NCBI GenBank assembly: GCA_944390275.1
Contig: CALXPL010000003.1
Span: forward strand, 18,373 to 82,372
Direction of reading: 5' to 3'
Source: an uncultured Alphaproteobacteria bacterium
GTDB taxonomy: Bacteria; Pseudomonadota; Alphaproteobacteria; RF32; CAG-239
Length of the DNA: 64,000 bases
Shown here: positions 5,360 to 59,820 of the stretch, in pieces
How positions within the stretch are numbered: position 1 is the first letter of the stretch
Layout: each line of letters begins with the position of its first letter
Program-made: the position numbers and the translations under genes
The notes under the pieces: model-generated
The model's input: the letters and a program-made list of their open reading frames with translations, nothing else
What the model was told of the DNA's origin: nothing
The model's database searches: none

Positions 5360-5388
5360 TTGACAAATGCAAAAAATTGTGCTAAATA
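5360..5388 (+). promoter_or_regulatory. Putative sigma70 promoter.
   Basis: TTGACA at 5360-5365, a 17-nt spacer and TAAATA at 5383-5388, upstream of the 5441 ORF. Confidence 0.45.
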
Positions 5389-5440
5389 GTGCGTAATTTT
5401 TTATTTATTATTAATATTATTCACTAAATTATTTTGCCTT

Positions 5441-5893: not shown

Positions 5894-5905
5894 CCTCTAA
5901 AATGA

Positions 5906-6370: not shown

Positions 6371-6388
6371 TAGTTTCGGTTTCTTCTT

Positions 6389-6426
6389 AAAAAAAACAGC
6401 TTGTATTAAAACAAGCTGTTTTTTTA
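6389..6426. terminator. Bidirectional rho-independent terminator.
   Basis: AAAAAAA acagcttgt attaaa acaagctgt TTTTTTT. It lies between convergent genes (5906 ORF on + and uvrB on -). Confidence 0.65.
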
Positions 6427-6484
6427 TTGCATGAAAATTAATGAGCGATTTGTGAATTTATTGTATGTAACAGAATTACGGCGG

Positions 6485-14682: not shown

Positions 14683-15369
14683 ATGTATATTTGGGTGGTT
14701 TTGGCTACTTTTATCGCTATCTTGTACGGCTTTAATTTGTCCGTGCGTTCCGATATGCGCCAAATTTATGTCGAGCCTCAAGCTGAAGCCGCTGTGAGTA
14801 AAATTGTCTTGCAGCATCGTGCCGCTGAGAAATTTTTTAATGATAAAGTTGCTCAACATATCGGGTATAGTGCCGGAAGGGTTAATGTACAAACTTTTGA
14901 GGATTTTTTACCTGTCGGTTTTGATCCTAATTATGATGATGACGGAAAAACTTATTATATTACAACTATGTATTGTTTGGATAAAAATTCAGACAAATTA
15001 TCTGCGGCTGCGGCAAGTTGTAATGCTGAAAATTCTCTGAATTATTTAATTACGTACGGTTGTGTGCCTCAACGTTGGAAAAGTATCAAAGGGGGACGAC
15101 CGGCTAATGATTTGGTTAATGCTATGCGTCGTGTAACAGGTAGAGGTTCTAATTTTGGTTATACTCAGCTTGTTGAAGCTGATGCCGAAAAAAATGATTT
15201 GGGGACGGAAATCGGTATTAATACCGGAAATAATCAATGGTTATCCGTGCCTCAATATATCATTTCTCAATCGGGTACCTTGGGTGATGAAAGTTTTGCA
15301 TCAATGTGCGGACTTGATGGCGCTTGTGCTTATTGTATGGCTTATATGACACCGTATGAACAATTGTAG
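14683..15369 (+). CDS. Hypothetical protein with an N-terminal hydrophobic anchor. It is the first gene of an operon with the giant prepilin-like protein.
   Basis: RBS GAGG 8 nt upstream of the ATG. N-terminus MYIWVVLATFIAILYGFNLSV. The C-terminus is Cys-containing (CGLDGACAYCMAY). The gene is divergent from fliL. Confidence 0.45.
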   Translation: MYIWVVLATFIAILYGFNLSVRSDMRQIYVEPQAEAAVSKIVLQHRAAEKFFNDKVAQHIGYSAGRVNVQTFEDFLPVGFDPNYDDDGKTYYITTMYCLDKNSDKLSAAAASCNAENSLNYLITYGCVPQRWKSIKGGRPANDLVNAMRRVTGRGSNFGYTQLVEADAEKNDLGTEIGINTGNNQWLSVPQYIISQSGTLGDESFASMCGLDGACAYCMAYMTPYEQL

Positions 15370-15378
15370 GGGGTGCGT

Positions 15379-20780: not shown

Positions 20781-20953
20781 TATGTCTGCTTCCTTGGTTA
20801 TTTTCTTTGATTATAATGTTTTTTTTATTTGTTTGTTAAGTCTTTTATTCTCTTTTTTATAAATATCTTTTTTTTTACTCTTGTCAATCTGTTCTAAATT
20901 AGTTAAATTATCTTCGTTTATATAATTTGCTTTTTTGTAAAAAGGATAAAATA

Positions 20954-21709
20954 ATGAATAAAAATTCTGGTATTATATCTGTTTTTGCATTGATTGTTTC
21001 TATTCTCGCTTTTGCTATGTGTTTTTGGAAATGCAATGCTAAAAATCAGACTGAAACTCAAACAGCTAATTCTTCTGAGTTGGTTGCTGCTGCTTTGTTA
21101 GAAAAACCTGAAATGGTTATTGATGCTCTTAATGCTTATGAAATTCAACAAAGAGCAAAAGCTGAAGAAGCAGCTCGTGAGCAGATTAAACCTTATTTGG
21201 AGCAGGTTTATGATGATCAAGTCATTCCGGCTATCTTCAATCCTGAAGGAAAAATGGTTCTTGTTGAGTTCTTTGATTTCTCTTGCGGATATTGTCATCG
21301 TCTCTATCCGGAAATGCAAAAAGTGGCTCAAGCTAATCCCGATGTTAAAATTATTGCCAAACCGGTTGCTTTCTTAGGACCTAATTCTCTTTATGCCGCT
21401 CAAGCTGTTTTGGCTGCCGGTGAACAAGGAAAATATGTCGAAATGTATAATGCTTTGTTTGCCATTAATGAGCAGTTAACTCAAGAAAATGTTGATAAAG
21501 CTGCTGAAAGCATTGGTTTAAATATGGATAAATATAAAGCTGATGTTGCTTCTGATGTCGTTTCTCAAAAACTTAACGACAGCCAATCTTTGGCTCAGAA
21601 AATCGGCGTCGATGGTGTTCCTACTTTAGTATTTAATGGTACAAAGTTTAACGCCGGTTCTGCTGATTTTATTCAGACAAAAATTGATGAGGCTAAGTCG
21701 GCTCAATAA
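20954..21709 (+). CDS. DsbA-family thiol:disulfide oxidoreductase, secreted.
   Basis: Start moved to ATG 20954 (RBS AAGGAT); the ORF track used an upstream TTG. It has a signal peptide and the thioredoxin-fold active site FSCGYCH. Confidence 0.75.
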   Translation: MNKNSGIISVFALIVSILAFAMCFWKCNAKNQTETQTANSSELVAAALLEKPEMVIDALNAYEIQQRAKAEEAAREQIKPYLEQVYDDQVIPAIFNPEGKMVLVEFFDFSCGYCHRLYPEMQKVAQANPDVKIIAKPVAFLGPNSLYAAQAVLAAGEQGKYVEMYNALFAINEQLTQENVDKAAESIGLNMDKYKADVASDVVSQKLNDSQSLAQKIGVDGVPTLVFNGTKFNAGSADFIQTKIDEAKSAQ

Positions 21710-48643: not shown

Positions 48644-49354
48644 TTATTCTTTGCTCTGTTTTCGTGCTGACCAAAGTCCTATTTCAAATAATAAATAGGT
48701 CGGTATGGTCAACATAAGTTGGCTGACAATATCCGGCGGGGTTAATATGCCGGCAATGATTAATATTCCGACAAAAATGTAAGAACGTTTGTTTTTAACG
48801 CTTTCATAAGATGTGATATTAAATCGGATTAAAGAATACGTAATAATCGGAAATTGAAACATTAAACCAAAAATTATTGAAAGCATTAGAGCTAAGCCAA
48901 TAATGTTTGAAATTCCGAACATGGCTTTAATTTCCGAAGTGGAAAAACTTATGCCGAAGTTGATGATTAACGGTAAGATAAAAAAGAGGCAAAATAAAAC
49001 CCCGATAATAAACAATGCTGATGAACTGAATACAATCGATTTTATAAATTTTCGTTCATTTTCATATAAGGCAGGAACGACAAATTGCCAGATTTGTCGG
49101 GCAATATAAGGAAAACAACATAAAAAATCTAAGACAACGGCAATTTTTATTTGCAGGATGAAGACTTCCATCGGAGAAAAATAGTTCAGAGAAACATTAT
49201 TTTTTCCAATCATAATTTTTATTAAGCAATCCATGAAATAGGGTGCAACCAAAAACAGCGGAATCAACCCAATTCCCAGCGCAACAAAACATCGTATTAA
49301 TGTGGAACGCAATGCTTCAAGATGTGTTAGCAGACTTTCGTCTTTATCTTCCAT
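48644..49354 (-). CDS. tatC: Twin-arginine translocase subunit TatC.
   Basis: 236 aa with six TM helices and TatC family motifs. It overlaps the tatA stop. Confidence 0.85.
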   Translation of the reverse strand: MEDKDESLLTHLEALRSTLIRCFVALGIGLIPLFLVAPYFMDCLIKIMIGKNNVSLNYFSPMEVFILQIKIAVVLDFLCCFPYIARQIWQFVVPALYENERKFIKSIVFSSSALFIIGVLFCLFFILPLIINFGISFSTSEIKAMFGISNIIGLALMLSIIFGLMFQFPIITYSLIRFNITSYESVKNKRSYIFVGILIIAGILTPPDIVSQLMLTIPTYLLFEIGLWSARKQSKE

Positions 49355-49566
49355 TATTTCTTCTCGGATTTCTTTTCTTCTGCTTCGGCGGCTTTTTGAA
49401 CGCTATCTTTTAAATCTTGTGCTTCGTTTTGCAACATTTCTTTCGCTTTTTTGTATTCATATTGGGCTTTGCCCAAGGCTTTGGCTAATTCCGGAATACG
49501 TTTTCCGCCAAAGAGTACTAATACAACTATTAAAATCAGCGCAATTTCTGTTAATCCTAATGACAT
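49354..49566 (-). CDS. tatA: Twin-arginine translocase subunit TatA/E.
   Basis: [34 protein letters not shown]: a TM helix followed by an amphipathic helix. 70 aa. Confidence 0.85.
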
Positions 49567-49578
49567 TTCTTTCTCCTT

Positions 49579-50853
49579 TTATAACAATTTTTGTTTTTCT
49601 ACTGCCACAATCTCTATTGCTTTAACCGGACAAGCCTTTTGACAAGCCCCGCAACCGATGCAGATTTCGGGATTGACTTTGGGAAAAGCATCTCCCTCTT
49701 TACTGATGGCTTCTTTGGGGCATTTCATGACGCATAAACCGCATTTGACACATTTTTCTTCATTAATTTGTGCCAGAGCGATTTGTGTCTTTTGCTTTTG
49801 TTCTAACGAAATTTTGGCAATAGCTCCCGAAGGACAAACCTCTGAACATTTATGACAATTATAATCGCAAAAACTATCTTCATAGTCAATATAAACCGTT
49901 GAATGTTCTTCATCGGCTTTTTTGATGATTTTCATGGGGCAGTTTTGTACGCATAGATTGCAGTTCAAGCACCGATTGGCAAAATCTTTTGCAGATTCTG
50001 CACCGGCTGGTAATATGGCTTTTTTGATTTTGGCGGCTATATTTTTGCTCAAAATGATGCCGCTTTTAATACCTGCCGCCAAAACAACCAAAGCCGTACC
50101 GCCAATAAGGAGTTTTCTTCGATTGGGGTTGAAGGAAACTTTTTCTTTGGGCTTTATGCCGTAATGAATCGCTTGTTTGGGGCATTTATCCAAACATTTT
50201 AAGCACTTGACACAAGTTTCATTATCTACAATTTTGTTTTTGAAATCAATACAACCGCTTGGACATTTTGACGCACAACTGCCGCAAGATACGCATTTCT
50301 CTTTTTCGATATAAATTTTATTTAAACTGCATTTGGAGATTAAGCCTAAAATGGCTCCGACCGGACAAATATTGGTGCAGAAAAAACGTCCCTTAAACCA
50401 GACCAGAGCGACTAACAAAATTAAAATTCCACCACCAAGATATGCTCCAGATATCGCTGAACCAAACAGGGTGTAGGGGTCTATCAGGCGAATCAAATAA
50501 ATTGTTCCTCCGATTAAAGTTCCGAAAACCACGGCGGCAAGAAAATATTTATACGGATAATTTTGTTGCGGTTTTCCTTTGCGGCGAAAGAGGCACGTTA
50601 GCAATTCTTGATATAAGCCCAGAGGACACAATGTTGAGCAATAAATTCTTCCTAAAAGAAAGGTCAGTAGAAAGTTTCCGGTTAACAGTATTATACTAAA
50701 TAAGCTGAAGTCTATTAACGCTCTTTGTCCTAACGCTATGATTTGTATATTAAAAATTTTCAAGGGATAAAAAATACCCAAAAAGGCAAGAATAGTTAAA
50801 ATTGCCATTAGTATTGCAAAAATTCGGCAAAAATAAAAAGTGGTTTTGTTCAT
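49579..50853 (-). CDS. Membrane-bound polyferredoxin, NapH-like. It has four to five TM helices and six [4Fe-4S] binding motifs.
   Basis: Start set at the internal Met (MNKTTFYF...) with RBS AAGGAAG, which avoids overlap with the flavodoxin stop. The N-terminal TM region carries a CSTLCPLG motif of the NapH/NosR type. The C-terminal region has six CxxCxxCxxxCP motifs: CVSCGSCASKCP, CVKCLKCLDKCP, CLNCNLCVQNCP, CHKCSEVCP, CVKCGLCVMKCP and CIGCGACQKACP. Confidence 0.7.
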   Translation of the reverse strand: MNKTTFYFCRIFAILMAILTILAFLGIFYPLKIFNIQIIALGQRALIDFSLFSIILLTGNFLLTFLLGRIYCSTLCPLGLYQELLTCLFRRKGKPQQNYPYKYFLAAVVFGTLIGGTIYLIRLIDPYTLFGSAISGAYLGGGILILLVALVWFKGRFFCTNICPVGAILGLISKCSLNKIYIEKEKCVSCGSCASKCPSGCIDFKNKIVDNETCVKCLKCLDKCPKQAIHYGIKPKEKVSFNPNRRKLLIGGTALVVLAAGIKSGIILSKNIAAKIKKAILPAGAESAKDFANRCLNCNLCVQNCPMKIIKKADEEHSTVYIDYEDSFCDYNCHKCSEVCPSGAIAKISLEQKQKTQIALAQINEEKCVKCGLCVMKCPKEAISKEGDAFPKVNPEICIGCGACQKACPVKAIEIVAVEKQKLL

Positions 50854-50863
50854 CAAATCTTCC

Positions 50864-51442
50864 TTATATCTTAAATCCCAAATCTTCAAGCCAGCTCGAA
50901 AGTCCGATACTCATGCTTCCGTATCCGCTCCACCCTGAAGAAACAACATCACAACCTTTGCATTGTGCCTTTATATCGGTTATGGTATTTTGTTTGCCGC
51001 CACCGCCGTGGGTGATGAACGGAATTACTTTTTTTCCGCTTAAATCATAGCTTTCTAAAAAACTGCTGACTTGCGGGGTAATTGTTCCCCACCAGTTGGG
51101 CGAACCAATGAAAATAATGTCATATTGATCGATATTTTCAACTTTAGTCGTTAATTTCGGTCGAAAACCCGATTGTATTTCTTTTTGTGCTTGTTGTGTC
51201 ATCGCGCGATATTCTTCGGGATAGCTTCCTTCGGCTTTAATTTCAAAAATTTCTCCGCCGATTTTTTTATGGATGGCATTGGCAATTTTTTGTGTGTTGC
51301 CGCTATATGAATAATAAGCCACCAAGATTTTTTTGTTTTGTGTATCCATTTTTTCTTCCATTTTTGTTTGTGCCATCAGTCGGTAGCCGGAAAATACGGC
51401 TATCGCCAAAATTATAATTCCTAAAATCAAATATTTATTCAT
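50864..51442 (-). CDS. Flavodoxin-family FMN protein with an N-terminal signal peptide or anchor.
   Basis: Hydrophobic N-terminus MNKYLILGIIILAIAVFSG, followed by flavodoxin motifs ILVAYYSYSGNTQKIA and IFIGSPNWWG. Confidence 0.7.
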   Translation of the reverse strand: MNKYLILGIIILAIAVFSGYRLMAQTKMEEKMDTQNKKILVAYYSYSGNTQKIANAIHKKIGGEIFEIKAEGSYPEEYRAMTQQAQKEIQSGFRPKLTTKVENIDQYDIIFIGSPNWWGTITPQVSSFLESYDLSGKKVIPFITHGGGGKQNTITDIKAQCKGCDVVSSGWSGYGSMSIGLSSWLEDLGFKI

Positions 51443-51453
51443 TTTATCATCCT

Positions 51454-52692
51454 TTATGCTTCAAAAGTTTTGGCAACTTCCTTCATCCATTTACTAATCT
51501 CAATATGTTGCGGGCAATTTTTTTCGCAAAGTTTGCAACCGATACACTGCGAGGCTTTGCCGTGTGTCTTTATCAAATTGGCATAATAAACGGCTTGAGC
51601 GTTGAAAGGTTTATCGCCTCGTTCTTGTTTTTCGGCATTGTATAAAGCAAAATAATCCGGAATGGCGATTTTCATCGGGCAGGCTTCAACGCAATATTTG
51701 CAAGCCGTGCAAGGAATTGTGATTTCATCATGCAAGGTTTTAACGGCGGTTTCAACAACTTTTAATTCCTGTTGCGTCATGGGTTTGAAGTTTTGCATAT
51801 AAGAAGTGTTATCTTCAACTTGTTCCCTATTGCTCATGCCGCTCAAGACCATCATAACACCGTCCAAGGATGCCGCGTAACGAATTGCCCAAGAGGCAAC
51901 CGACATATTGGGTTCGGCATTTTTGAAGATTGTTTCCACTTTTTCCGGAACAAGAGCCAAACTTCCGCCTTTAACCGGCTCCATAACAATAACCGGTTTG
52001 TTATATTTTTGAGCCACTTCATAGCATTTGCGTGATTGAATACTCGGGTTATCCCAATCGATATAGTTAATTTGTAATTGTACAAACTCAACTTCCGGAT
52101 GCTCTTTTAAAACTTCTTCCAAAAGCTCTGGGCTATCATGGAAGGAAAATCCGATATGCTTAATTTTTCCTTCTTTTTTCTTGTCGGCTACAAATTTGAA
52201 ACTATCATATTTGCGTGCATTGCCGATGGTGTTGGCATTAACATTGTGTACGAGATAATAGTCAAAATAGTCCAAACCGGTTTTTTCTAATTGTTTATTG
52301 AATATTTCTTCTTGGTGTTCTGCACTTTTGAGCATACCGATAGGAAGTTTGCTGGCAACGGTAAACTTATCTCTCGGATGACGCTCAACCAAAGATTTTC
52401 TCAAAGCATTTTCACTTTCATAGCCCATGTACATCCACGCCGTGTCAAAATAGGTAAAACCTCTTTCCAAAAAAGTATCGACCATTTTATTTAATTCATT
52501 ATAATCAATGGAAGTTTGGTCTTGCGGGTCTTTTAACGGTAAACGCATAAAGCCGAATCCAAGTTTGTTTTTATTATTGATTTGTTTTTTTACGGCTTCG
52601 GATACGGGAATCGTATCTGCTAATGTTAATTTGGGAAGTGCCGATAAGGCAAAAGCGGCTAAAGTACTCATTAAAAATTCGCGTCTGTTCAT
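51454..52692 (-). CDS. Tat-exported aldo/keto reductase fused to a C-terminal 4Fe-4S dicluster ferredoxin domain.
   Basis: Twin-arginine signal [28 protein letters not shown] core ([11 protein letters not shown]...). C-terminal motifs [12 protein letters not shown] and [12 protein letters not shown]. Confidence 0.75.
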
Positions 52693-52766
52693 GGAATGCT
52701 CCTGTAATAAGTTAACTTTTGTAAAGTATAATTTTTAGAGTGTACTCAAAGTCAAGAATTTTTTAT

Positions 52767-53225
52767 TTAATCATCATCATTTTCAAAAACTTCTATTTTG
52801 GCATTAAATCCGCCTTTGTATGCTGACAAATTTTCCAGTCCTCTTTCTATTTGTCCTAATTCTATCAGATTCTTATCAAGATAATCTCCGTGGTCTTTAT
52901 AAAAGAAACCCCAGTTGCCCCACGGAACGTAAATAAACATCTTTCCGGCAGAGGCAATCATGCCGCGAGGAACGTTATTTAAAGATAAAGGTCTTGAAAA
53001 TTTTGATATTTTTTCTTCTCCGGCAAAATCAATAAATTCAAAATTTGTAGGAAGCATCTTTATAAATTGTTCTGCTGCCGAATTATCAGCCATTCGGACA
53101 ATGATTTCTTTTTGATTTTCTATTGTCAGCTTAATTTTCATTACATTTGTATCCTGTATGTTTTTTCCATAAGATATTGAACTTATCAGATTAAATAAAA
53201 TTAACAAAACAACCCGTCTTTTCAT
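52767..53225 (-). CDS. Secreted cyclophilin-like-fold protein of unknown function.
   Basis: Signal peptide MKRRVVLLILFNLISSISYG. About 130-aa mature domain; no family recognised. Confidence 0.35.
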   Translation of the reverse strand: MKRRVVLLILFNLISSISYGKNIQDTNVMKIKLTIENQKEIIVRMADNSAAEQFIKMLPTNFEFIDFAGEEKISKFSRPLSLNNVPRGMIASAGKMFIYVPWGNWGFFYKDHGDYLDKNLIELGQIERGLENLSAYKGGFNAKIEVFENDDD

Positions 53226-53230
53226 AAAAC

Positions 53231-54085
53231 TTATTCCTCATAAATGGGTTTATAATTTTCAATATCGGCGTCTTTAATCAAATTGATGGTTGTCATGGCG
53301 TTGGCCAGTCCGATATACGGAATGGCTTGAACCATAGCGGCTAAAAGTGTTTCTTTATCATTTCCGGCTTTTATGGCTCCAACCACATGAGCACTTAGTT
53401 GTTTTTCTGCTCCCAGGGTTGTTAAAATGACTAGAGATAACAACTCTCTCTGCTGAATGGATAAGCCGCCTCTGGTATAAAAATCACCAAAACAAAAAGT
53501 CGTCAGAGTATTGGGGACAACATCTTTATAAATATCGGGTAAAGATGCCATGGCTTTCTTGACTTCATCACCATAAAGTTGATTTTGAATTTCCAAACCC
53601 TTTCCATAACGGTTTTCATCAGTTGTTGCAGAAACATTGTCAAGCGGCAGCTTTATTCCTCTTTCTTTTGCCACTTCGTTAAAAACCCCAATGGCATTAA
53701 GGGTACGCGGAAAACCGATAAACGGGGCACATTGATAAATTGCTTCTCTGATTTCAAGAGGAGAATTGCCAACATTAAGTGCCGCATTGATATGAGCTTT
53801 GAGCTGAGGTAAAGTTTGTAAAGTTGATAAAGCCACAACCGTAATAAGCTCTCTGTCCTTAGCTGTTAAGTTTCCGCTATGGAATACTTCTCCAAAAATA
53901 TTACGTTGTAAAATTTCCATAAATTCCGGATCGGTTGGACTTGGTGTTCGTTCTGCTTGAAAGAGCTCTTTATAAACGATATCTGCTTTTTCTGCTCTGG
54001 TCATTGTTTTTTCCTCCGCCTGAACATTATTAAAACCCATTGCTAAAACCATAAGTAAAATGGTAATAAATCGTTTCATAAACAT
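53231..54085 (-). CDS. Secreted protein with two tandem domains of the carboxymuconolactone decarboxylase (AhpD-like) family.
   Basis: Signal peptide MFMKRFITILLMVLAMGFNNVQA. Two CMD-like halves (…GNSPLEIREAIYQCAPFIGFPRT… and …GNDKETLLAAMVQAIPYIGLANA…). Confidence 0.65.
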   Translation of the reverse strand: MFMKRFITILLMVLAMGFNNVQAEEKTMTRAEKADIVYKELFQAERTPSPTDPEFMEILQRNIFGEVFHSGNLTAKDRELITVVALSTLQTLPQLKAHINAALNVGNSPLEIREAIYQCAPFIGFPRTLNAIGVFNEVAKERGIKLPLDNVSATTDENRYGKGLEIQNQLYGDEVKKAMASLPDIYKDVVPNTLTTFCFGDFYTRGGLSIQQRELLSLVILTTLGAEKQLSAHVVGAIKAGNDKETLLAAMVQAIPYIGLANAMTTINLIKDADIENYKPIYEE

Positions 54086-54151
54086 CTCCGTAAAATGATA
54101 GCTTTAGCGTTATTATGATTGACTTTAGAAAATAAGTCTAATATTGTTTTT

Positions 54152-54178
54152 TTATAGAACTATAAATTTTACTTATAG
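54152..54178. promoter_or_regulatory. LysR-type regulator binding motif (T-N11-A palindrome plus an extra half-site) in the divergent intergenic region.
   Basis: TTATAGAACTATAA palindrome at 54152-54165 and a repeat TTATAG at 54173-54178, 10-35 nt upstream of the lysR start and upstream of the divergent operon. Confidence 0.4.
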
Positions 54179-54187
54179 TGAGAAATT

Positions 54188-55084
54188 ATGGAATTAACTC
54201 AATTATTACAATTCAAAACCATTGCCGAATGCAAAACGATGACAGCGGCAGCCGAAAAATTACATATATCACAACCGGCATTAAGTGCGGGATTAAAAAA
54301 ACTTGAAGAAGAACTCGGCATACAGCTTTTTGAAAGAAAGAAAAATAACATATCCTTAAACAAAGCAGGAGAAATGGCATTTACTTATACTTGTGCAATT
54401 TTAGGACAAGTTGAAGAAATGAAAAATGCTTTTCGCCAATATTCAAAAGAAAATAACAATATTAGTCTTGGCTTTTGCGACCCAGGGCCGATGCGCTTTG
54501 CAACACCGTTGTTGCAACAAGATAATCCAGAGCTGGAAATTTCTTCGGAAATCGTTGCTGATGATTCAATTTTGTTGAACGATTTGTTAAGTCATCGATA
54601 TGATGCTGTTGTATCTTTGGAAAAATTCGAATATCAAGATGTTATAAGTATTCCTTTTGCCAAAGAACAACTCATGTTATCTGTTCCTATCGGAGATGAA
54701 CTTGCAAATAAAACAAGCGTTAATTTGCACCTTTACCCAAATCGAGAATTTGCCGTATATCGAATGTATTGTGCTTATGAACAAAAAATGAAGGATTTTA
54801 TGGATTGGCTTGTTTCGTTGCCGCACGTTACTGTTTATACGGATTATTTTGTGTTTCGCCAAATGCTGGAACATAAAAATCTTTTGAGTTTTACTACCAG
54901 ATTAGTGCAATTTTATCGTCATGACGGCGAACGCGTCATCATTCCGTTAGAAGATGAGGGAATAACCGCAACTTATTGGTTTTCGTATATAAAAGACAAT
55001 AAAAAGCGTATGCAACCTTTCATATCATGGATTGAAAAAAATTCCTTAATGCTTTTAGGAACAGAAAGTCATAGCTATAAATAA
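54188..55084 (+). CDS. LysR-family transcriptional regulator.
   Basis: N-terminal HTH (LLQFKTIAECKTMTAAAEKLHISQPALSAGLKKLEEELGIQLFER) and a C-terminal substrate-binding domain. It is divergent from the redox operon. Confidence 0.85.
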   Translation: MELTQLLQFKTIAECKTMTAAAEKLHISQPALSAGLKKLEEELGIQLFERKKNNISLNKAGEMAFTYTCAILGQVEEMKNAFRQYSKENNNISLGFCDPGPMRFATPLLQQDNPELEISSEIVADDSILLNDLLSHRYDAVVSLEKFEYQDVISIPFAKEQLMLSVPIGDELANKTSVNLHLYPNREFAVYRMYCAYEQKMKDFMDWLVSLPHVTVYTDYFVFRQMLEHKNLLSFTTRLVQFYRHDGERVIIPLEDEGITATYWFSYIKDNKKRMQPFISWIEKNSLMLLGTESHSYK

Positions 55085-55172
55085 AATTTATAACTTTATA
55101 AACAAATAATATTAGACGGTTATCCGGTTTTGCTCTAAACTAAATTTATCTGAATATATAGAAGGCATAAAT

Positions 55173-56240
55173 ATGTTAAAATTCATAACAATAGTTATTC
55201 TCTTAGTCATAGTTTTTTGTGGGTATGTCTTTAATGAAATTGGGAAATCTCCTTCTCAAGAAGAATTAAAAAAATATGAATCTTTACCCTATTTTAAAGA
55301 TGGTAGCTTTCAAAGTCCTCAAAAGTTGGTTTATGATTTTGATAATGTACGAAATGGTCCGGCAACTTGGTTTCGCTTTCTGAAATGTTCTCCTTTTGCA
55401 CCTAAACAAGAATTGCCAATGAAAAAATTAACCCGAGCAGATTTTAGCCAAAATGCTGATGATTTTGCGCTCTACTGGCTTGGACATTCTTCTGTCTTAT
55501 TAGAATTAGACGGTAAAAGAATCCTTTTCGACCCTGTTTTTGGAAATGCTGCGCCTCTGCCTTTTATGGTTCCTCGCTATAATAAAGCTCCGGTTAAAGT
55601 ATCTGAGTTACCGAAGATTGACATTGTCATTATTAGCCATAATCACTACGATCATTTGGAAAGAAAAACCGTGCAAAGTCTTAAAAATTCTCATTTTATT
55701 GTTCCCTTAGGTGTCGGTGCTGCTTTGCGAGGGTGGGGAATTAAACACGAAAATATTACCGAGCTTGGTTGGGGTGATAAGTACAGCAATCAAGGAATAA
55801 ATATTATTGCGGAAACTGCCGTTCATTATTCAAGTCGTGGTTTTGGTGATCGTAATAAAACTTTATGGAATTCTTATATCCTTCAATCTGGTGCGGTCAA
55901 TCTTTATTGGAGCGGCGATAGCGGCTACGGTACTCATTTTCAGAAAATTGGTAAAAAGTATGGACCTTTTGATTTAGCTGCTCTTGAAATTGACGGTTGG
56001 AATACCGGATGGCCAAATACCCATATGTTTCCTCAAGAAGTTATAAAAGTTACAAAAGAGTTAAAAGCTGAAAAAATTTTACCTCTTCATTGGGCTGTAT
56101 TTGATTTAGCTTTGCACCCATGGCATGAATCTATAGATATGATTCTTGAAGAAACTAAAAATACTCCCATAAAAGTTTTAACTCCATTAATGGGCCAGAA
56201 GATAAATCCTTTTGACACGAAAACTCAAAAATGGTGGTAA
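55173..56240 (+). CDS. MBL-fold metallo-hydrolase (NAPE-PLD-like) with an N-terminal TM anchor.
   Basis: HxHxDH motif SHNHYDHLE and downstream His/Asp ligands. 355 aa. Confidence 0.7.
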   Translation: MLKFITIVILLVIVFCGYVFNEIGKSPSQEELKKYESLPYFKDGSFQSPQKLVYDFDNVRNGPATWFRFLKCSPFAPKQELPMKKLTRADFSQNADDFALYWLGHSSVLLELDGKRILFDPVFGNAAPLPFMVPRYNKAPVKVSELPKIDIVIISHNHYDHLERKTVQSLKNSHFIVPLGVGAALRGWGIKHENITELGWGDKYSNQGINIIAETAVHYSSRGFGDRNKTLWNSYILQSGAVNLYWSGDSGYGTHFQKIGKKYGPFDLAALEIDGWNTGWPNTHMFPQEVIKVTKELKAEKILPLHWAVFDLALHPWHESIDMILEETKNTPIKVLTPLMGQKINPFDTKTQKWW

Positions 56241-56375
56241 TTGTTTGTTTTACAACTTTCTTCCTTATTTTGACGATGAACCGGGCTTTGCCCTCACCGT
56301 CATACTTCCGTCTGCCTCTCCTCCTAGTCAAACCGCTCTCTCCGCGGTTCGAGAATTCTATATTGTTACCATTAC

Positions 56376-56404
56376 AAAAAAACCTCCGCAAGGGAGGCTT
56401 TTTT
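56376..56404. terminator. Bidirectional rho-independent terminator, shared by the + strand upstream gene and the - strand tRNA-Thr.
   Basis: AAAAAAA cctcc gcaag ggagg C TTTTTT. The whole 39-nt element attacaaaaaaacctccgcaagggaggcttttttgtaat is nearly palindromic. Confidence 0.7.
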
Positions 56405-56408
56405 GTAA

Positions 56409-56485
56409 TGGTGCCGACACACGGACTCGAACCGCGGACCCACTGATTACAAATCAGTAGCTCTACCAACTGAGCTATGTCGGCA
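56409..56485 (-). tRNA. tRNA-Thr (anticodon TGT).
   Basis: The reverse complement gives TGCCGACATAGCTCAGTTGGTAGAGCTACTGATTTGTAATCAGT...GGTTCGAGTCC...GTCGGCACCA. Anticodon loop TTTGTAA. CCA encoded. Confidence 0.75.
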
Positions 56486-56544
56486 CAACTGAATGCTTTA
56501 TATACTAATCTTTTTTTTGTGTCAATAGTATTTTTTTATTTATT

Positions 56545-56928
56545 TTATGCTTTATCTAATAGAAAAAATCTTGTGCCATAGGCGGCTGCAAAACAGACTA
56601 TTATGCCGCTTAATACCGAACCACTTGTATAAACAAGCGATTTTATCATTTCATTCTTTTCAATTAAAAAAACGTTATCTAGGGCAAAGGTTGAAAAAGT
56701 GGTGAATGAACCTAAAAATCCGGTGATTAGAAATAATTTTGCTTGGTAGGGAAGGTTGCTTTTTAATGCAAATATTTCTGCTAATATTCCTATTAATGCA
56801 CATCCTATTATATTTACTATTAAGGTATGATATGGAAAATTTGTGATTTTATTTTCAAATTGCGTAAATATGTAGTGGCGGCTTATGGCTCCTAAAACTC
56901 CACCTAAGCCTATAAATAGATAATTCAT
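56545..56928 (-). CDS. crcB: Fluoride ion channel CrcB/FluC.
   Basis: 127 aa with four TM helices and a GFLGSFTTFSTF motif. Confidence 0.85.
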   Translation of the reverse strand: MNYLFIGLGGVLGAISRHYIFTQFENKITNFPYHTLIVNIIGCALIGILAEIFALKSNLPYQAKLFLITGFLGSFTTFSTFALDNVFLIEKNEMIKSLVYTSGSVLSGIIVCFAAAYGTRFFLLDKA

Positions 56929-57047
56929 TTTCTTTCTCCTCTTTCTCGTTTATAGGCTTCTTATTTTTTTTCGCAAGTTATTTTTTTGTTGTTTCTTTTT
57001 CTTTTTTTGTGATTATATATTTTATGTCTTACTTTATGGAGGTTTTT

Positions 57048-57668
57048 ATGAAATTTTTGAAATTCGTTTATCCTATTCTTGCCGCAACTTGGTTGGCGAC
57101 TCCTTGTTGGGCTCAAATGCAAAATTTACCCATTAATTCTTTGCCTCCCCCTAATATTTTTGGCGGTTTGGCTATCATGGAAGCTCTTAATAATCGCCAT
57201 TCTGGAAAGGATTTTAGTTACAATACTATTGATTACCAAACGCTTAGCGAAATTCTATGGGCAGCTTGGGGAATTAATCGCGATGATGGGAAACGTACCG
57301 TTCCAACAGCTATGAATCAACAAAATATGCAAGTCTATGTGTTGATGGCTAACGGAGCTTGGCTGTATAATGCTCAAAATAACAATATTGAACAAGTTAC
57401 GGCTCAAGATTTGAGAAGTTATTTACAAACTCAAGAATATACTCAAAATGCTCCGGTTTTCTTGCTTTATACAACAAATGGTAATCCTGCAGGAATGACT
57501 GATGCTATGCAGGCTGGGTCTATGTACCAAAATGTAGCTCTCTATTGTGCGGCTAAAGGATTAAATAATGTTGTGCGGGCCGATTTCCAAAAATCAGATT
57601 TAGCTGCTGCTCTTGGTATTGATGAAGATACTATCTTGATTTCTCAAGTTGTCGGCTATCCTATTTAA
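57048..57668 (+). CDS. Secreted nitroreductase-fold protein (SagB/ThcOx-like dehydrogenase family).
   Basis: RBS GGAGG 5 nt upstream of the ATG. Signal peptide MKFLKFVYPILAATWLATPCWAQ. Nitroreductase-like core (LWAAWGINR...RTVPTAMNQQNMQVYVL). Confidence 0.55.
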   Translation: MKFLKFVYPILAATWLATPCWAQMQNLPINSLPPPNIFGGLAIMEALNNRHSGKDFSYNTIDYQTLSEILWAAWGINRDDGKRTVPTAMNQQNMQVYVLMANGAWLYNAQNNNIEQVTAQDLRSYLQTQEYTQNAPVFLLYTTNGNPAGMTDAMQAGSMYQNVALYCAAKGLNNVVRADFQKSDLAAALGIDEDTILISQVVGYPI

Positions 57669-57805
57669 TTTTTTCTTATGTTTTTTATAAGGCAGTCTTT
57701 CTGCCTTATTTTTTTATGTCCTTTTTCTTCTTTCCAAGTAAAATTAGGTATTTACATGTTGCAACAAATATGTTATATTAGAGTCGTGATGATAAGAAGG
57801 AGGAT

Positions 57806-58972
57806 GTGATGAAGAGTATATCAAAGATACTATTACTGTCTGCTGTCGGCTTATATGTTGAGAGCGGAAATTTATCTTATGCGTCTTTTGAGGCAGCTTC
57901 ATTTCACCTCAAGTCTGGCATTCCCACTTTACACACACATCACACATACATACGCCATACTCAGGAAATACTCAACTTATCATCACACCTTTTTGATAAA
58001 GGAACAGATAAGGGTGTGAAAATTGCTTCGGTGTGTTTTATAACCGATGCGGGAAATTGTGGAGCAGACAAATTCGGTAATACGGAAACTCCTGACGGTG
58101 GCGGGGGCGGAGGAAATCCCGATGACCACGGCACTCCTGAGGAACTTTGTAAACAAGCCGGTTATACCAACACGCCTTGTCCCGATGGAAGCTCCCCTAC
58201 CTCTTATTGCCCTTATGACAGTTCTTATCATTCCGATTGTGAATGTTCTTCCGAATATAATCAAGTTTGTGATACGGCTCTTGGAGAACAAGGTGTTGGG
58301 AATCCTTGCGGCGGCAAATATAAAGAATGTTGTAATCTCTGTTCTGATTATAAATATACATCTATTCCCTCGGGTTATGTGAACAACGGTGAATGTCAAT
58401 CTTGTGATGGTAAAAAATACAAAATCAAATGCGACCCACAAAAATATGTTTTAGCACCAACCTGTGGAACATTGGGCGGCTATGGTAATACCTGTTCCGA
58501 TGATAGCGGAACTTATTATACTGAATGTAAATGTCCCAATAATTATGAATGGAGTTCCTCGCAAAAGAAATGCGTTTGTGCCACTTCTTTCAAATATTCT
58601 TGCTCCGGTACGGGGTATTCGGGAGGAGATGGGAATTCTTGCGACAACAAATATTCAAAATGTAAATGTGCAAACGGTTTTACATGGAATGCTTCGCAAG
58701 GGGCATGTGTTTGTTCAAGTTCTTATAAATACTCATGTAGTGGAACGGGCTATGCCGGAGGAGAGGGAACTGCTTGTAATGGCAAATATTCACAATGTAA
58801 ATGCGCAAGCGGTTATGTTTGGAATGCTTCGCAAGGAGCTTGTGTCTGTAATGGTTTAGACTGGTGTTCTCTTAACCAAAATTGTTCGGCTTGGGGTTAT
58901 GCCAAACAAAGTTGTGAGGGAAAATCCGTTAAATGTCCATTTAACATGAATTATGTTTATTGCCTCGATTAG
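57806..58972 (+). CDS. Secreted cysteine-rich repeat protein of 388 aa with about 56 Cys.
   Basis: Signal peptide and a Gly-rich linker (PDGGGGGGNPDD). Three tandem repeats of about 48 aa: C[VK]C...YSCSGTGY[SA]GG[DE]G..C..KYS[KQ]CKCA.G..WNASQGACVC. Confidence 0.5.
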   Translation: MMKSISKILLLSAVGLYVESGNLSYASFEAASFHLKSGIPTLHTHHTYIRHTQEILNLSSHLFDKGTDKGVKIASVCFITDAGNCGADKFGNTETPDGGGGGGNPDDHGTPEELCKQAGYTNTPCPDGSSPTSYCPYDSSYHSDCECSSEYNQVCDTALGEQGVGNPCGGKYKECCNLCSDYKYTSIPSGYVNNGECQSCDGKKYKIKCDPQKYVLAPTCGTLGGYGNTCSDDSGTYYTECKCPNNYEWSSSQKKCVCATSFKYSCSGTGYSGGDGNSCDNKYSKCKCANGFTWNASQGACVCSSSYKYSCSGTGYAGGEGTACNGKYSQCKCASGYVWNASQGACVCNGLDWCSLNQNCSAWGYAKQSCEGKSVKCPFNMNYVYCLD

Positions 58973-58986
58973 AAAGGAGAAAAGAA

Positions 58987-59736
58987 ATGAGAAAATATAC
59001 TTTATTAACTTCGGTTTTGTTAACGGCTCCTTTTTCTGCGAGCAATGTTTTGGCACAATGTGTTGCCACCCAAGACTGCGCAAGTTTAGGTTATACCGAA
59101 ACTTCTTGCCAAAACGGTGGTATCAAATGTCCCTTTGGCGATAAATGGGCTTGCAAAAGCGACGGAACAACAGATTGTACTTATGGAACAATTTATTTTT
59201 CTGACGGAAGCTGTGGAGAACAACTTATCAAAGGAAAAACAGCTATTGGTGTCGTTGTCTATGATGAAAATAATGAAAAATGGATTGTTTCTTTATATAA
59301 TGTAAGTACTAATGTAAAATGGTCAGAAGAATATGTTGATATACCTGAAATAACAAATTATACAGGGCAAACGGAAATATATGATTTGAAGAGCTGCGAA
59401 AATACGGAAGCGATGCTCGCTTTAGGCAAATCGAAATATCCTGCTGCGCTTGCTGCCACGTATTATGCTCCAACAGGAGCGGAAAGTACTGCAGGAAAAT
59501 GGTGTTTACCGGCAGCAGGTATTTGGAATGCGATAGATAATCATCTTGCTGAAATAGATGCTGCTATAATATTGGCAAATGGAGAACCCATAGGAAATTC
59601 AGAATATGAAACTTATTGGACTTCGTCAGAATGTACTTATTACTACGCTGCGTATAGAATTTTTTCCGGTGAACTCGTTTGCGCTATCAAAAGTAGCTTT
59701 TATGATCGTAATGTTCGCCCAGTTTTAAAAATTTAA
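58987..59736 (+). CDS. Secreted cysteine-containing protein, paralogous at its N-terminal module to the C-terminus of the upstream Cys-rich protein.
   Basis: Start set at ATG 58987 with RBS AAAGGAG. Signal peptide MRKYTLLTSVLLTAPFSASNVLAQ. It shares the SCxxGxxKCPF...C module with the previous protein (SCQNGGIKCPFGDKWAC versus SCEGKSVKCPFNMNYVYC). Confidence 0.5.
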   Translation: MRKYTLLTSVLLTAPFSASNVLAQCVATQDCASLGYTETSCQNGGIKCPFGDKWACKSDGTTDCTYGTIYFSDGSCGEQLIKGKTAIGVVVYDENNEKWIVSLYNVSTNVKWSEEYVDIPEITNYTGQTEIYDLKSCENTEAMLALGKSKYPAALAATYYAPTGAESTAGKWCLPAAGIWNAIDNHLAEIDAAIILANGEPIGNSEYETYWTSSECTYYYAAYRIFSGELVCAIKSSFYDRNVRPVLKI

Positions 59737-59783
59737 TTTATTGTTCTAATTTATAGTTTTTATTTTCTCGTCAATGTTGCTCT

Positions 59784-59820
59784 AAAAAACTCCCTTATCT
59801 TCAAAATAAGGGAGTTTTTG
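59784..59820. terminator. Bidirectional rho-independent terminator between the Cys-rich gene (+) and ftsZ (-).
   Basis: AAAAAA ctcccttat cttcaaa ataagggag TTTTT. Confidence 0.7.

What the first reader, a model, noticed from the sequence alone, without database searches (positions are those of the whole stretch)
57806..59736. Tandem secreted cysteine-rich repeat proteins with a shared Cys-Pro-Phe module
Gene 1 (388 aa, about 56 Cys) has a signal peptide, a poly-Gly linker and three tandem repeats of about 48 aa with fully conserved Cys spacing (CVC..S.KYSCSGTGY.GG.G..C..KYS.CKCA.G..WNASQGACVC). The repeats are visible at the DNA level between about 58520 and 58850. Gene 2 (250 aa) is also secreted. 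It opens with the same SC..G..KCPF....C module that closes gene 1, which points to module shuffling or duplication. Cysteine knots this dense resemble eukaryotic EGF-like or granulin-like extracellular modules more than typical bacterial proteins. The genome context (a DsbA-like gene is present; a possible ankyrin remnant lies nearby) fits a secreted effector or adhesin of a host-associated bacterium. No known family was recognised.
Basis: seen in the sequence. Interest (0 to 1): 0.6.

Follow-up and report, generated by a model that had tools for sequence, protein, structure and literature searches.

The report
Cysteine-rich stalk and lectin-head operon
Two adjacent genes of an uncultured human-gut alphaproteobacterium encode exported, disulfide-rich modular proteins, a repeat "stalk" and a lectin-like binding "head", from a large lineage-specific family that varies between strains and that a mutagenic retroelement diversifies in a related bacterium.

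Summary
The two ORFs, the shared module and the tandem repeat are real, but several details are wrong. Gene 1 has 38 Cys, not 56. The repeat period is 45 aa/135 bp, not 48 aa/144 bp.

Gene 1 has a signal peptide, an invariant ASVCFITDxGxC motif and a Gly linker. The linker is followed by five ~44-aa six-Cys repeats between two ~35-aa "GY…CPF" cap modules. None of these modules matches Pfam, NCBIfam or PDB sequences.

Gene 2 has a signal peptide, one cap and a divergent Lcl_C/DUF1566 C-type-lectin-like domain (hhalign 99.4%; Foldseek hits to 4EPS and to phage DUF1566 tail-fibre tips). So gene 2 does belong to a known superfamily.

Both genes belong to a family confined to uncultured gut Alphaproteobacteria, with 9–15 or more loci per genome bin. 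Only 280 of 1.84 billion clusters carry the modules. Stalk and head are fused in some paralogues.

The most likely role is an exported ligand-binding (adhesin-like) unit. Similarity to EGF/TNFR modules is at fold-class level only and is not significant.

A 99.7%-identical strain has one repeat fewer. Its sequence diverges to 76% exactly at the repeat boundary.

In a related bin, the head gene is the target of a diversity-generating retroelement (DGR) that has an unusual array of eight template repeats. The window itself has no DGR.

The parts
57687..57709 (+). Terminator-like hairpin ending the upstream nitroreductase gene. It marks the 5' boundary of the unit.
   Evidence: The nitroreductase is identified.
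57751..57779 (+). Sigma-70-like promoter, TTTACA-17-TATATT, with TG before the -10.
   Evidence: 10/12 matches. This is a consensus match only; the count in the region is no higher than in shuffles.
57806..58972 (+). Gene 1, the 'stalk' protein: 388 aa from GTG 57806, likelier 387 aa from ATG 57809. It has 38 Cys.
   Evidence: 132 homologues, best 85% identical.
57806..57883 (+). Gene 1 Sec-type signal peptide (residues 1-26, ...SYA|S).
   Evidence: Read from the sequence; conserved in alignment A1.
57884..58021 (+). Variable His/Thr-rich region (residues 27-72; ...TLHTHHTYIRHT...), predicted disordered.
   Evidence: variable in length and sequence, recurrent HTH-type motif. (pLDDT <50).
58025..58060 (+). 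Near-invariant motif ASVCFITDAGNC (residues 74-85, two Cys). It is the family signature of gene-1-type proteins.
   Evidence: V76 C77 I79 T80 D81 C85 invariant. (VC[FS]ITD in 111/120 gene-1 hits and 0/120 gene-2 hits). (used as a scan pattern).
58061..58129 (+). Gly/Pro/Asp-rich linker that includes GGGGGG.
   Evidence: low pLDDT.
58130..58246 (+). First 'GY...CP[YF]' cap module (residues 109-147, 5 Cys).
   Evidence: HMM hit 109-145, E 1.7e-11.
58247..58579 (+). Three degenerate copies of the ~44-aa Cys repeat (residues 148-258).
   Evidence: HMM hits 149-186, 180-216 and 217-258, E 5e-9 to 9e-11.
58580..58714 (+). Repeat R4 (residues 259-303), six Cys in the spacing C-x12-C-x6-C-x-C-x12-C-x-C.
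58715..58849 (+). Repeat R5 (residues 304-348). It is absent from the 99.7%-identical strain L087, and identity to that strain drops at its 5' edge.
58850..58969 (+). Second cap module (residues 349-388), the module shared with gene 2.
   Evidence: 352-386, E 2e-15.
58987..59736 (+). Gene 2, the 'head' protein: 249 aa, 11 Cys. It starts 14 nt after gene 1's stop and has its own RBS.
   Evidence: 313 homologues, best 96% identical.
58987..59055 (+). Gene 2 Sec-type signal peptide (residues 1-23, ...VLA|Q).
   Evidence: Read from the sequence; conserved in alignment A2.
59056..59157 (+). Gene 2 cap module (residues 24-57).
   Evidence: 23-57, E 9e-19. Present in 117/120 gene-2-family hits.
59164..59733 (+). 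C-type-lectin-like head domain (residues 60-249). Residues 123-249 are homologous to Lcl_C/DUF1566.
   Evidence: pLDDT >90 over the domain. (4EPS, E 6e-5). (phage DUF1566 and tail-fibre proteins, E 1e-10 to 3e-14, TM up to 0.70). (hhalign 99.4%, E 4e-21).
59599..59733 (+). Hypervariable C-terminal segment of the head (residues ~205-249). It is positionally equivalent to the DGR variable region of the homologue in L014/L082.
   Evidence: highest column entropy, 2.2-3.1 bits. (VR position in homologues). (no similarity to strain L087 beyond 59591).
59785..59819 (+). Strong hairpin terminator (14 bp stem) between gene 2 and the convergent ftsZ. It marks the 3' boundary of the unit.
20927..21709 (+). 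DsbA-family oxidoreductase (CGYC active site). It is unlinked, but gives the cell the capacity to form the ~19 disulfides of gene 1.
   Evidence: (PF01323, E 4e-24).

Best explanation
Positions 57751-59819 form a compact two-gene operon for exported, disulfide-stabilised modular proteins. They belong to a paralogous family specific to uncultured gut Alphaproteobacteria.

Gene 1 is a headless 'stalk'. It has a Sec signal peptide, a disordered His/Thr-rich segment, an invariant ASVCFITDxGxC motif and a Gly linker. Then comes a rigid rod of small beta-hairpin modules: cap, five six-Cys repeats, cap. DsbA would oxidise the rod in the periplasm.

Gene 2 is a 'head'. It has a signal peptide, one cap module and a C-type-lectin-like Lcl_C/DUF1566 domain. 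The hypervariable C-terminal ~45 residues of that domain form the ligand-binding face.

By analogy with other uses of this fold, the pair most likely acts as a surface-exposed or secreted binding (adhesin-like) device. Those uses are the Legionella Lcl adhesin, a Bacteroides fimbrial protein (4EPS), phage tail-fibre tips and DGR variable proteins. The ligand is unknown.

Variation comes from recombination within the conserved repeats and caps. This changes repeat number and swaps the downstream head allele. In a sister lineage, DGR mutagenesis of the head also contributes.

Shown: the anatomy, the family, the fold and homology of the head, the fusions, the strain differences, and the DGR in relatives.
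Inferred: export past the outer membrane, the disulfide pattern, stalk-head cooperation, and the binding function.
For: Operon anatomy:
- Promoter-like site, two RBSs, a 14-nt intergenic gap and flanking terminators.
- The gene-1-like then gene-2-like order is kept in L001, L002, L003, L087, L090 and L091 despite different flanks.
- 10 of 31 complete headless family genes are followed directly by a head gene.

Fusions (Rosetta-stone argument):
- P0013 joins a gene-1-like protein to a gene-2-type head through a single cap. P0241 and P0259 carry heads inside repeat arrays.

Head identity:
- AF2 pLDDT 84.7.
- Foldseek hits to 4EPS (E 6e-5) and weakly to C-type lectins.
- BFVD hits to DUF1566 and tail-fibre proteins, E down to 3e-14.
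- hhalign 99.4% to Pfam-validated Lcl_C segments.
- 36 of 110 family members weakly hit PF07603.

Stalk:
- AF2 pLDDT ~90 over residues 110-388, all short beta-hairpins.
- All Cys are invariant across homologues, and the Cys count is even (38).
- Lcl_C is the only Pfam domain that recurs with these modules.

Other support:
- DsbA is present. The cell is diderm, with LpxK and Kdo transferase.
- Function of the fold: Lcl-CTD binds sulphated GAGs (PMC11162425). DUF1566 is the commonest DGR target domain in the human microbiome (PMC4159848, PMC5758913).
- A homologous head is a bona fide DGR target with bAvd and RT.
- Strain variation: L087 is 99.7% identical over 9.9 kb, then 76% from the R4/R5 boundary, and has one repeat fewer.
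Against: - No experiment or expression data are available.
- No secretion system or anchor that would take the proteins beyond the periplasm was found in the window.
- The window protein itself does not reach any Pfam threshold.
- The ligand is unknown.
- Stalk-head association is only inferred. 19 of 31 headless genes have no head gene next to them.
- The sharp identity break at a repeat could be a metagenome mis-assembly in L087 or in the window, rather than recombination.
- The window-type heads are not hypervariable in populations. P0129 is identical in 9 contigs and P0161 in 23.
Confidence: 0.6

Rival explanations
1. Gene 2 is itself an actively diversified DGR variable protein. Its C-terminal ~45 residues would be rewritten by a DGR located elsewhere in the genome.
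For: - A gene-2-family homologue directly downstream of a gene-1-family gene is a textbook DGR target. In L014 the VR and TR differ at 13/13 positions that are TR adenines, and in L082 at 19/19. bAvd and RVT_1 lie alongside.
- The equivalent segment of the window protein is the most variable part of the family.
- That segment is enriched in NNY codons: 26/35 against 111/210, p=0.03.
- DGRs can act on remote targets (PMC5758913).
Against: - The 64-kb window has no TR-like copy of the gene 2 3' end.
- The window has no DGR-type RT motif.
- P0121 (96% identical) is identical across the VR-equivalent.
- The orthologues P0129 and P0161 are sequence-identical in 9 and 23 independent contigs.
- No DGR lies within 10 kb in L087, L089, L090 or L091.
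- A metagenome scan for the constant 3' end found only unrelated DNA.
Confidence: 0.12
2. The pair is a remnant of a prophage receptor-binding (tail-fibre) module rather than a cellular surface system.
For: The best structural matches of the head are phage proteins, including an annotated tail fibre (E 9e-12, rmsd 2.1 A over 192 columns) and crAss-like phage DUF1566 proteins. A tRNA-Thr lies 1.3 kb upstream.
Against: - Both proteins carry Sec signal peptides, which virion proteins lack.
- There are no PHROG hits.
- The neighbours are housekeeping genes (nitroreductase, crcB, ftsZ/A/Q).
- The upstream 9 kb is syntenic and 99.7% identical in another strain.
- There are 9-15 or more chromosomal paralogues per genome bin.
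Confidence: 0.04
3. Gene 1 is a eukaryote-like EGF/TNFR-type mimic, acquired from or converging on host extracellular modules, that acts as an effector on host receptors.
For: - R4 and R5 match C-x-C-x2-[GP]-[FYW]-x(4,8)-C. Two or more matches occurred in 0.08% of shuffles.
- The top Foldseek PDB hits are CD40, TNFR1, RANK, HVEM and LDLR/SCARF1 EGF modules.
- A few family members hit cEGF or RANK_CRD_2 weakly.
Against: - All structural hits are non-significant (E >= 0.05, probability <= 0.23, TM <= 0.15).
- The window protein has no Pfam, NCBIfam or PDB-sequence hit at E <= 10.
- The modules occur in only 280 clusters, and their only recurrent Pfam partner is the prokaryotic/phage Lcl_C domain.
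- The local base composition is ordinary (GC 0.39 against 0.32-0.41 in the other 2-kb bins of the window).
Confidence: 0.08
4. The proteins are periplasmic or secreted Cys/His-rich metal-binding or antimicrobial (defensin/macin-like) peptide precursors.
For: Gene 1 is 10% Cys and has a His/Thr-rich N-terminal motif. The cap module weakly matches hydramacin-1 (2K35, E 0.026), with 4 of 5 Cys aligned.
Against: - The hit is marginal.
- The Cys count is even and every Cys is invariant, in a confidently predicted beta-hairpin ladder. That is typical of disulfides in an exported protein where DsbA is present.
- The modules are always embedded in long multi-module proteins with lectin-like heads.
- No processing sites or immunity or transporter genes lie adjacent.
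Confidence: 0.04

Closest known systems
Legionella pneumophila collagen-like adhesin Lcl (stalk plus Lcl_C/DUF1566 head; PMC11162425)
   Same: Both are exported proteins built as an N-terminal surface-association region, an elongated repetitive stalk of variable repeat number, and a C-terminal CLec-like DUF1566 head. The head of gene 2 is homologous to Lcl_C. Longer paralogues carry a canonical PF07603 domain above threshold.
   Different: The stalk here is a monomeric disulfide-ladder of Cys-rich modules, not a collagen triple helix. Stalk and head are on two polypeptides in the window. Lcl-CTD lacks disulfides. Trimerisation, GAG binding and T2SS export were not tested here. The window head does not reach the Pfam threshold.
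DGR variable proteins of the CLec2/DUF1566 class (category 'd' of PMC5758913, e.g. Legionella LdtA; commonest class in the human microbiome, PMC4159848)
   Same: Same head fold and the same position of the variable segment at the extreme C-terminus, ending ...VRPV(L/M)xF/I. A family member (L014/L082) is a demonstrable DGR target.
   Different: The window copy has no TR, Avd or RT, and its orthologues are invariant across samples. It is not a lipoprotein, whereas LdtA is. The N-terminal Cys-rich modules are new.
Bacteroides ovatus BACOVA_04982 fimbrial protein (PDB 4EPS)
   Same: It is the best solved-structure match of the gene 2 model (Foldseek E 6e-5, probability 1.0; profile E 0.013). The matching stretch (426-489 of 510 residues) lies near the C-terminus of 4EPS.
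   Different: Sequence identity is 15%. 4EPS is annotated as a fimbrial protein, and no fimbrial or pilus genes were seen here.
DUF1566 tips of gut-phage tail fibres (BFVD models, e.g. A0A8S5TDR4, A0A7M1S0D6)
   Same: They superpose best on the whole ~190-aa head (TM 0.6-0.7, rmsd 2-4 A). This argues for a receptor-binding role.
   Different: Here the context is cellular and Sec-exported, not virion-associated. There are no PHROG matches.
Eukaryotic EGF-like and TNFR cysteine-rich domains
   Same: Both are small (~40-45 aa) six-Cys beta-hairpin modules in tandem that form an elongated rod. R4 and R5 carry a CxCxxG[FY]x8C signature. These domains are the nearest PDB folds.
   Different: There is no significant sequence or structure match. 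The C2-C3 spacing of 12 is atypical for EGF. Disulfide connectivity is unknown. Distribution is restricted to one bacterial clade.

Membership tests
Lcl_C / DUF1566 (PF07603), for gene 2 | Match to the Pfam HMM above the gathering score (34.9 bits) | tested here: not met
   No PF07603 hit for the window protein, even at E <= 10 or E <= 1. 36 of 110 family members hit weakly (best E 1.7e-4).
Lcl_C / DUF1566 (PF07603), for gene 2 | Profile-level homology to bona fide Lcl_C domains | tested here: met
   hhalign of A2 against A5 gives probability 99.4%, E 4e-21, covering gene 2 residues 123-249. A5 contains segments that pass Pfam's threshold: P0242 54.7 bits, P0244 84.6 bits, P0290 84.2 bits. Caveat: the A5 segments come from the same clade.
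Lcl_C / DUF1566 (PF07603), for gene 2 | C-type-lectin-like alpha/beta fold | tested here: met
   AF2 pLDDT >90 over residues 61-249. Foldseek hits: 4EPS at E 6e-5 plus weak CD23/MBP hits, and DUF1566-annotated phage proteins at E 1e-10 to 1e-5.
DGR variable protein (target gene) | A VR with a cognate TR that differs only at TR adenines | tested here: not met
   The 64-kb window has no repeat of 59300-59740. The feature is met for the homologue in L014 (13/13) and in L082 (19/19).
DGR variable protein (target gene) | DGR reverse transcriptase and Avd in the neighbourhood | tested here: not met
   No ORF of 200 aa or more in the window has the [ILVM]GxxxSQ and YxDD motifs together. There is none within 10 kb of the orthologues. 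Both are present in L082 (PF22296 bAvd, PF00078 RT). The rest of the genome cannot be seen.
EGF-like domain, for the gene 1 repeats | Match to an EGF-family profile (Pfam EGF, hEGF, cEGF, EGF_CA) | tested here: not met
   The window protein has 0 Pfam families at E <= 10. cEGF is hit weakly (E ~0.015) in 1 of 84 family members.
EGF-like domain, for the gene 1 repeats | Six Cys with the CxC signature and 1-3, 2-4, 5-6 disulfides | tested here: inconclusive
   R4 and R5 match C-x-C-x2-[GP]-[FYW]-x(4,8)-C, a pattern recalled from memory. Foldseek EGF and TNFR hits have E >= 0.05.
TNFR cysteine-rich domain | Significant structural or profile match to TNFR CRDs | tested here: not met
   The best match is CD40 8YX9 at E 0.05, probability 0.15, TM 0.09. 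RANK_CRD_2 appears only in a few long paralogues.
Granulin | Match to the granulin profile or its 12-Cys pattern | tested here: not met
   No Pfam hit of any kind. The module has 6 Cys per 45 aa in a different spacing.
Legionella Lcl-type collagen-like adhesin | Collagen-like G-x-y repeat stalk | tested here: not met
   No G-x-y repeats are present in either sequence. The stalk consists of Cys-rich modules.
Bacterial lipoprotein | Lipobox [LVI][ASTVI][GAS]C at the end of the signal peptide | tested here: not met
   Sequence inspection: gene 1 reads ...LSYA|SF and gene 2 reads ...NVLA|QC, with Q at -1 relative to the Cys.
Known bacteriocin or phage protein families | Match to NCBIfam or PHROG models | tested here: not met
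   NCBIfam gave no relevant hit. PHROGs gave none.

The most novel reading that the evidence does not exclude
The family may be a programmable surface-display system of gut Alphaproteobacteria. In this reading, an invariant N-terminal tag and a disulfide-ladder stalk of new Cys-rich modules present exchangeable CLec heads.

Two processes would vary the heads. One is recombination at the conserved repeat and cap modules, which would explain the break at 58715/58716 and the gain of one repeat. The other, in a sister lineage, is a DGR that carries a tandem array of about eight alternative template repeats. With that array, one VR can be rewritten from different templates of different length, which combines cassette choice with adenine mutagenesis.
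Probability: 0.2. Interest if true: 0.8.

Novelty: new variant of a known kind. Interest (0 to 1): 0.5.

Why it matters
Uncultured gut Alphaproteobacteria have essentially no characterised surface biology. This work defines a lineage-specific multigene family with 9-15 or more loci per genome bin. It is built from three unannotated modules: the ASVCFITD tag, a 35-aa cap and a 44-aa six-Cys repeat. These modules carry heads of the DUF1566/CLec class.

The family gives a concrete candidate for how these bacteria bind host, dietary or microbial ligands, and for how that binding varies between strains. It offers new Pfam-type domain definitions and a rare bacterial example of an EGF/TNFR-like disulfide-ladder stalk. 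It also led to a DGR with an apparently unreported multi-template architecture.

Tried and rejected
- Pfam, NCBIfam, PHROGs and PDB-sequence searches with the single proteins gave nothing useful.
- Tandem Repeats Finder misses the 135-bp repeat because the copies are only ~74% identical.
- Model coordinates are not exposed, so predicted disulfide pairing could not be extracted.
- The third homology search, with the N-terminal tag region (88 aa), returned 'no candidate'. This is probably a limit of the word index, since the motif is in 111 known relatives.
- A search for a DGR in the window (TR repeat, RT motifs) was negative.
- The prophage reading was rejected on context and signal peptides.
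- The lipoprotein reading was rejected on sequence.
- The hydramacin-like hit of the cap (E 0.026) is kept only as a lead.
- The 'ankyrin remnant' was not pursued.
Full report
**Observation**

Gene 1 is 57806..58972 (388 aa from GTG). ATG 57809, 7-8 nt after AGGAGG, is the likelier start. Gene 2 is 58987..59736 (249 aa from ATG), which begins 14 nt after gene 1's stop and has its own RBS.

A sigma-70-like promoter (57751-57779) follows the terminator of the upstream nitroreductase gene. A 14-bp-stem terminator (59785-59819) separates gene 2 from the convergent ftsZ. The pair therefore looks like a self-contained operon.

- Gene 1 has 38 Cys, not ~56.
- The repeat period is 45 aa/135 bp, not 48 aa/144 bp.
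- The DNA repeat is real: 58524-58714 against 58659-58849 is 74% identical, E 2e-29. The two copies are 82% identical at codon positions 1 and 2 and 60% at position 3. This is an old duplication kept under protein-level selection. Tandem Repeats Finder misses it.

The module shared by the end of gene 1 and the start of gene 2 is also real: 13/31 identities, E 8e-7.

**Anatomy**

I built HMMs iteratively from the window repeats and searched them on the 240 homologues.
- The ~44-aa six-Cys repeat occurs five times in gene 1. Three copies are degenerate (149-258) and two are well conserved (R4 259-303, R5 304-348). Relatives carry 1-8 copies.
- The ~35-aa five-Cys 'GY...CP[FY]' cap occurs twice in gene 1 (109-145, 352-386) and once in gene 2 (23-57). 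It is found in 89/120 gene-1-family hits and 117/120 gene-2-family hits.
- Upstream of the first cap, gene 1 has a Sec-type signal peptide, a variable His/Thr-rich stretch, a near-invariant ASVCFITDxGxC motif and a Gly-rich linker. The motif is in 111/120 gene-1-type relatives and in no gene-2-type relative.
- Every Cys of the rod is invariant or nearly so across 28-84 homologues. The total Cys count is even.
- AlphaFold2 with the family alignment models residues 110-388 at pLDDT ~90 as a string of short beta-hairpins. It leaves residues 1-103 disordered.

**What the head is**

Single-sequence searches of gene 2 against Pfam, NCBIfam and PDB found nothing. Deeper comparisons did.
- 36 of 110 family members hit PF07603 (Lcl_C, formerly DUF1566) weakly.
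- Longer paralogues of both genes carry PF07603 above threshold.
- A profile-profile comparison of the gene 2 family with Pfam-validated Lcl_C segments gives 99.4% probability and E 4e-21 over residues 123-249.
- The AF2 model (pLDDT 84.7, above 90 across residues 61-249) matches the Bacteroides ovatus fimbrial protein 4EPS (E 6e-5) and, weakly, classical C-type lectins.
- The model matches predicted phage proteins annotated DUF1566 or tail fibre much more strongly (E 1e-10 to 3e-14, TM up to 0.70).

Gene 2 is therefore a divergent member of the DUF1566/CLec superfamily. This fold forms the GAG-binding head of Legionella Lcl (PMC11162425). It is also the commonest target of diversity-generating retroelements in the human microbiome (PMC4159848; category 'd'/CLec2 in PMC5758913).

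**What the stalk is**

No Pfam, NCBIfam or PDB-sequence match exists for gene 1.
- The best Foldseek PDB matches are TNFR-superfamily CRDs (CD40, TNFR1, RANK, HVEM) and EGF modules (LDLR, SCARF1). All have E 0.05-4, probability <=0.23 and TM <=0.15, so none is significant.
- R4 and R5 match the short pattern C-x-C-x2-[GP]-[FYW]-x(4,8)-C, which I recall as PROSITE EGF_2. Two or more matches occurred in 0.08% of shuffles.
- A few relatives hit cEGF or RANK_CRD_2 weakly.
- The cap weakly resembles hydramacin-1 (E 0.026).

I conclude that the repeats belong to the general class of small disulfide-ladder modules. They cannot be filed under EGF, TNFR or granulin.

**Family and distribution**

- Gene 1 has 132 homologues and gene 2 has 313 in a 5.8-billion-protein collection. 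Almost all are unnamed metagenome proteins.
- A profile of 'repeat + cap' finds only 280 clusters (E <= 1e-3) among 1.84 billion representatives. In the large members scanned, the only known partner domain is Lcl_C.
- In GTDB species representatives, 116 stretches in nine assemblies encode relatives. Eight assemblies are labelled as uncultured Alphaproteobacteria, Proteobacteria or Pseudomonadota MAGs, including 'uncultured Azospirillum sp. UMGS63' and HGM16780. One, with a single 4-kb contig, is labelled Bacteroidales. From my own knowledge, UMGS and HGM identifiers belong to human-gut MAG catalogues.
- Among the 78 loci kept, individual bins have 9-15 loci. Many lie at contig ends.
- The window's other genes show an anaerobic, flagellated diderm with a DsbA. 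They include Fer4 proteins, LpxK, Kdo transferase, FliM, TatC and ftsZ/A/Q.

**Stalk and head belong together**

- The gene-1-like then gene-2-like order recurs in different chromosomal contexts: L001, L002, L003, L087, L090 and L091.
- Of 31 complete headless family genes with room downstream, 10 are followed directly by a head gene. The figure for genes that already carry a head is 3 of 20. This is a trend, not proof.
- Fusions exist. P0013 is a gene-1-like protein whose terminal cap runs straight into a gene-2-type head. P0241 and P0259 embed one or two such heads in long repeat arrays. P0194 is a gene-2-type protein with an inserted repeat.

**Strain-level variation**

Contig L087, from another sample, is 99.7% identical to the window over 9.9 kb (48852-58716, TatC through most of gene 1).
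- Identity then falls to 76% exactly at the R4/R5 boundary (58715/58716).
- It is lost altogether for the last ~145 nt of gene 2 and everything downstream.
- Its gene 1 orthologue is 342 aa, exactly one repeat shorter.
- In alignment A1, only the window and four close relatives have the extra copy.

This pattern is what unequal recombination between repeats of two paralogous or allelic operons would leave. Such an event would add a repeat and bring in a different cap and head. A metagenome mis-join at a repeated module would look the same, so I mark this as inferred. A distant bin (L024) also has a family gene ~2.3 kb from ftsZ in the same orientation. That favours the window's arrangement being genuine.

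**The DGR connection (outside the window)**

A screen of all fetched loci for adenine-specific imperfect repeats flagged L014 (UMGS63). The 3' end of a gene-2-family ORF, directly downstream of a gene-1-family ORF, differs from a downstream AAC-rich repeat at 13 positions. All 13 are adenines in the repeat.

The longer contig L082 shows the full cassette in this order:
- stalk gene
- head gene (the target)
- a YafQ/RelB pair
- bAvd (PF22296)
- 2.2 kb of non-coding DNA
- RT (RVT_1)

The non-coding stretch is a tandem array of 7.9 units of 274 bp, and each unit holds a distinct TR-like segment.
- The VR in L082 equals unit 7 with 19/19 differences at adenines.
- The VR in L014 equals unit 5 (13/13), although the part of L014's array held in the locus includes units 2, 4 and 5 at 100% identity to L082's.
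- L015 matches unit 4 (17/21) and L013 matches unit 2 (22/24). No match needs gaps.

Published surveys that I could search mention at most two TRs in one DGR (PMC6642488). I found no description of such an array. The literature search was limited to open-access text.

**Is the window's head a DGR target?**

Probably not at present.
- The window has no TR and no DGR-type RT.
- The 96%-identical P0121 does not differ in the VR-equivalent.
- The orthologues P0129 and P0161 are identical in 9 and 23 contigs respectively.
- A metagenome scan for the constant 3' end was negative.

The VR-equivalent is nevertheless the most variable part of the family. It is mildly enriched in NNY codons (p=0.03). 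This is compatible with a DGR history or simply with selection on the binding face.

**Verdict**

The best explanation (confidence ~0.6) is a two-gene operon for an exported, DsbA-oxidised stalk protein and a CLec/DUF1566 ligand-binding head. The family is adhesin-like, lineage-specific and expanded, and it varies by module recombination.

Gene 2 is a new, divergent member of a known superfamily. The stalk modules and the N-terminal tag are unannotated. Overall this is a new variant of a known kind of system (repetitive stalk plus lectin-like head). The ligand, the localisation and the stalk-head cooperation remain untested.

Noticed in passing
L082:4852-8808 (ENA ERZ28640065 scaffold_740); also L014:8058-9502, L013:5920-6055, L015:6168-6304: A DGR lies next to a stalk/head operon of this family. 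Between bAvd and RT it has a tandem array of ~8 units (period 274 bp, 5230-7407), each with a different AAC-rich template-repeat-like segment. Orthologous VRs in four assemblies match different units (u7 19/19, u5 13/13, u4 17/21 and u2 22/24 mismatches at TR adenines, no gaps). I found no report of more than two TRs per DGR in the searchable literature.
   Followed up: partly
window 58715-59736 against L087:9865-10643: A contig that is 99.7% identical over the 9.9 kb upstream drops to 76% identity exactly at the R4/R5 repeat boundary. It has one repeat fewer and shares nothing with the window beyond 59591. This is either repeat-mediated allele replacement with a rearrangement, or a metagenome mis-assembly at a repeated module.
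   Followed up: partly
window 57884-58060 (gene 1 residues 27-85): A recurrent His/Thr-rich motif (TLHTHHTYIRHT; THTHITHNT in paralogues) precedes the near-invariant ASVCFITDxGxC motif. Both are predicted disordered and are specific to stalk-type proteins. They could be an anchoring, sorting or metal-binding signal of unknown kind.
   Followed up: partly
window 58850-58969 and 59056-59157 (cap modules): The family profile of the 35-aa cap weakly matches the Hydra antimicrobial peptide hydramacin-1 (PDB 2K35, E 0.026), with 4 of 5 Cys aligned.
   Followed up: no
L090:10753-12963 and L091:10753-12963; proteins P0348, P0298: Some family members replace the lectin head with a ~350-aa Cys-poor, Asn/Thr-rich C-terminal region that has no Pfam match. 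In L090 and L091 such a gene is the third gene of the operon.
   Followed up: no
L004-L081 (genome-contig scan): Many family loci sit at contig ends in the MAGs. This suggests that the paralogues break short-read assemblies, so the per-genome counts of 9-15 are lower bounds.
   Followed up: no
L082:3941-4484: A YafQ/RelB toxin-antitoxin pair is inserted between the DGR target gene and bAvd.
   Followed up: no
window 3818-4804 (+) and 15356-18145 (+): Two sizeable ORFs (328 aa and 929 aa) have no Pfam match at E <= 1e-4. They are not related to the family by tblastn.
   Followed up: no
window 56409-56484 (-): A tRNA-Thr (TGT) lies 1.3 kb upstream of the operon. No integrase or other mobile-element genes were seen around it.
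   Followed up: partly
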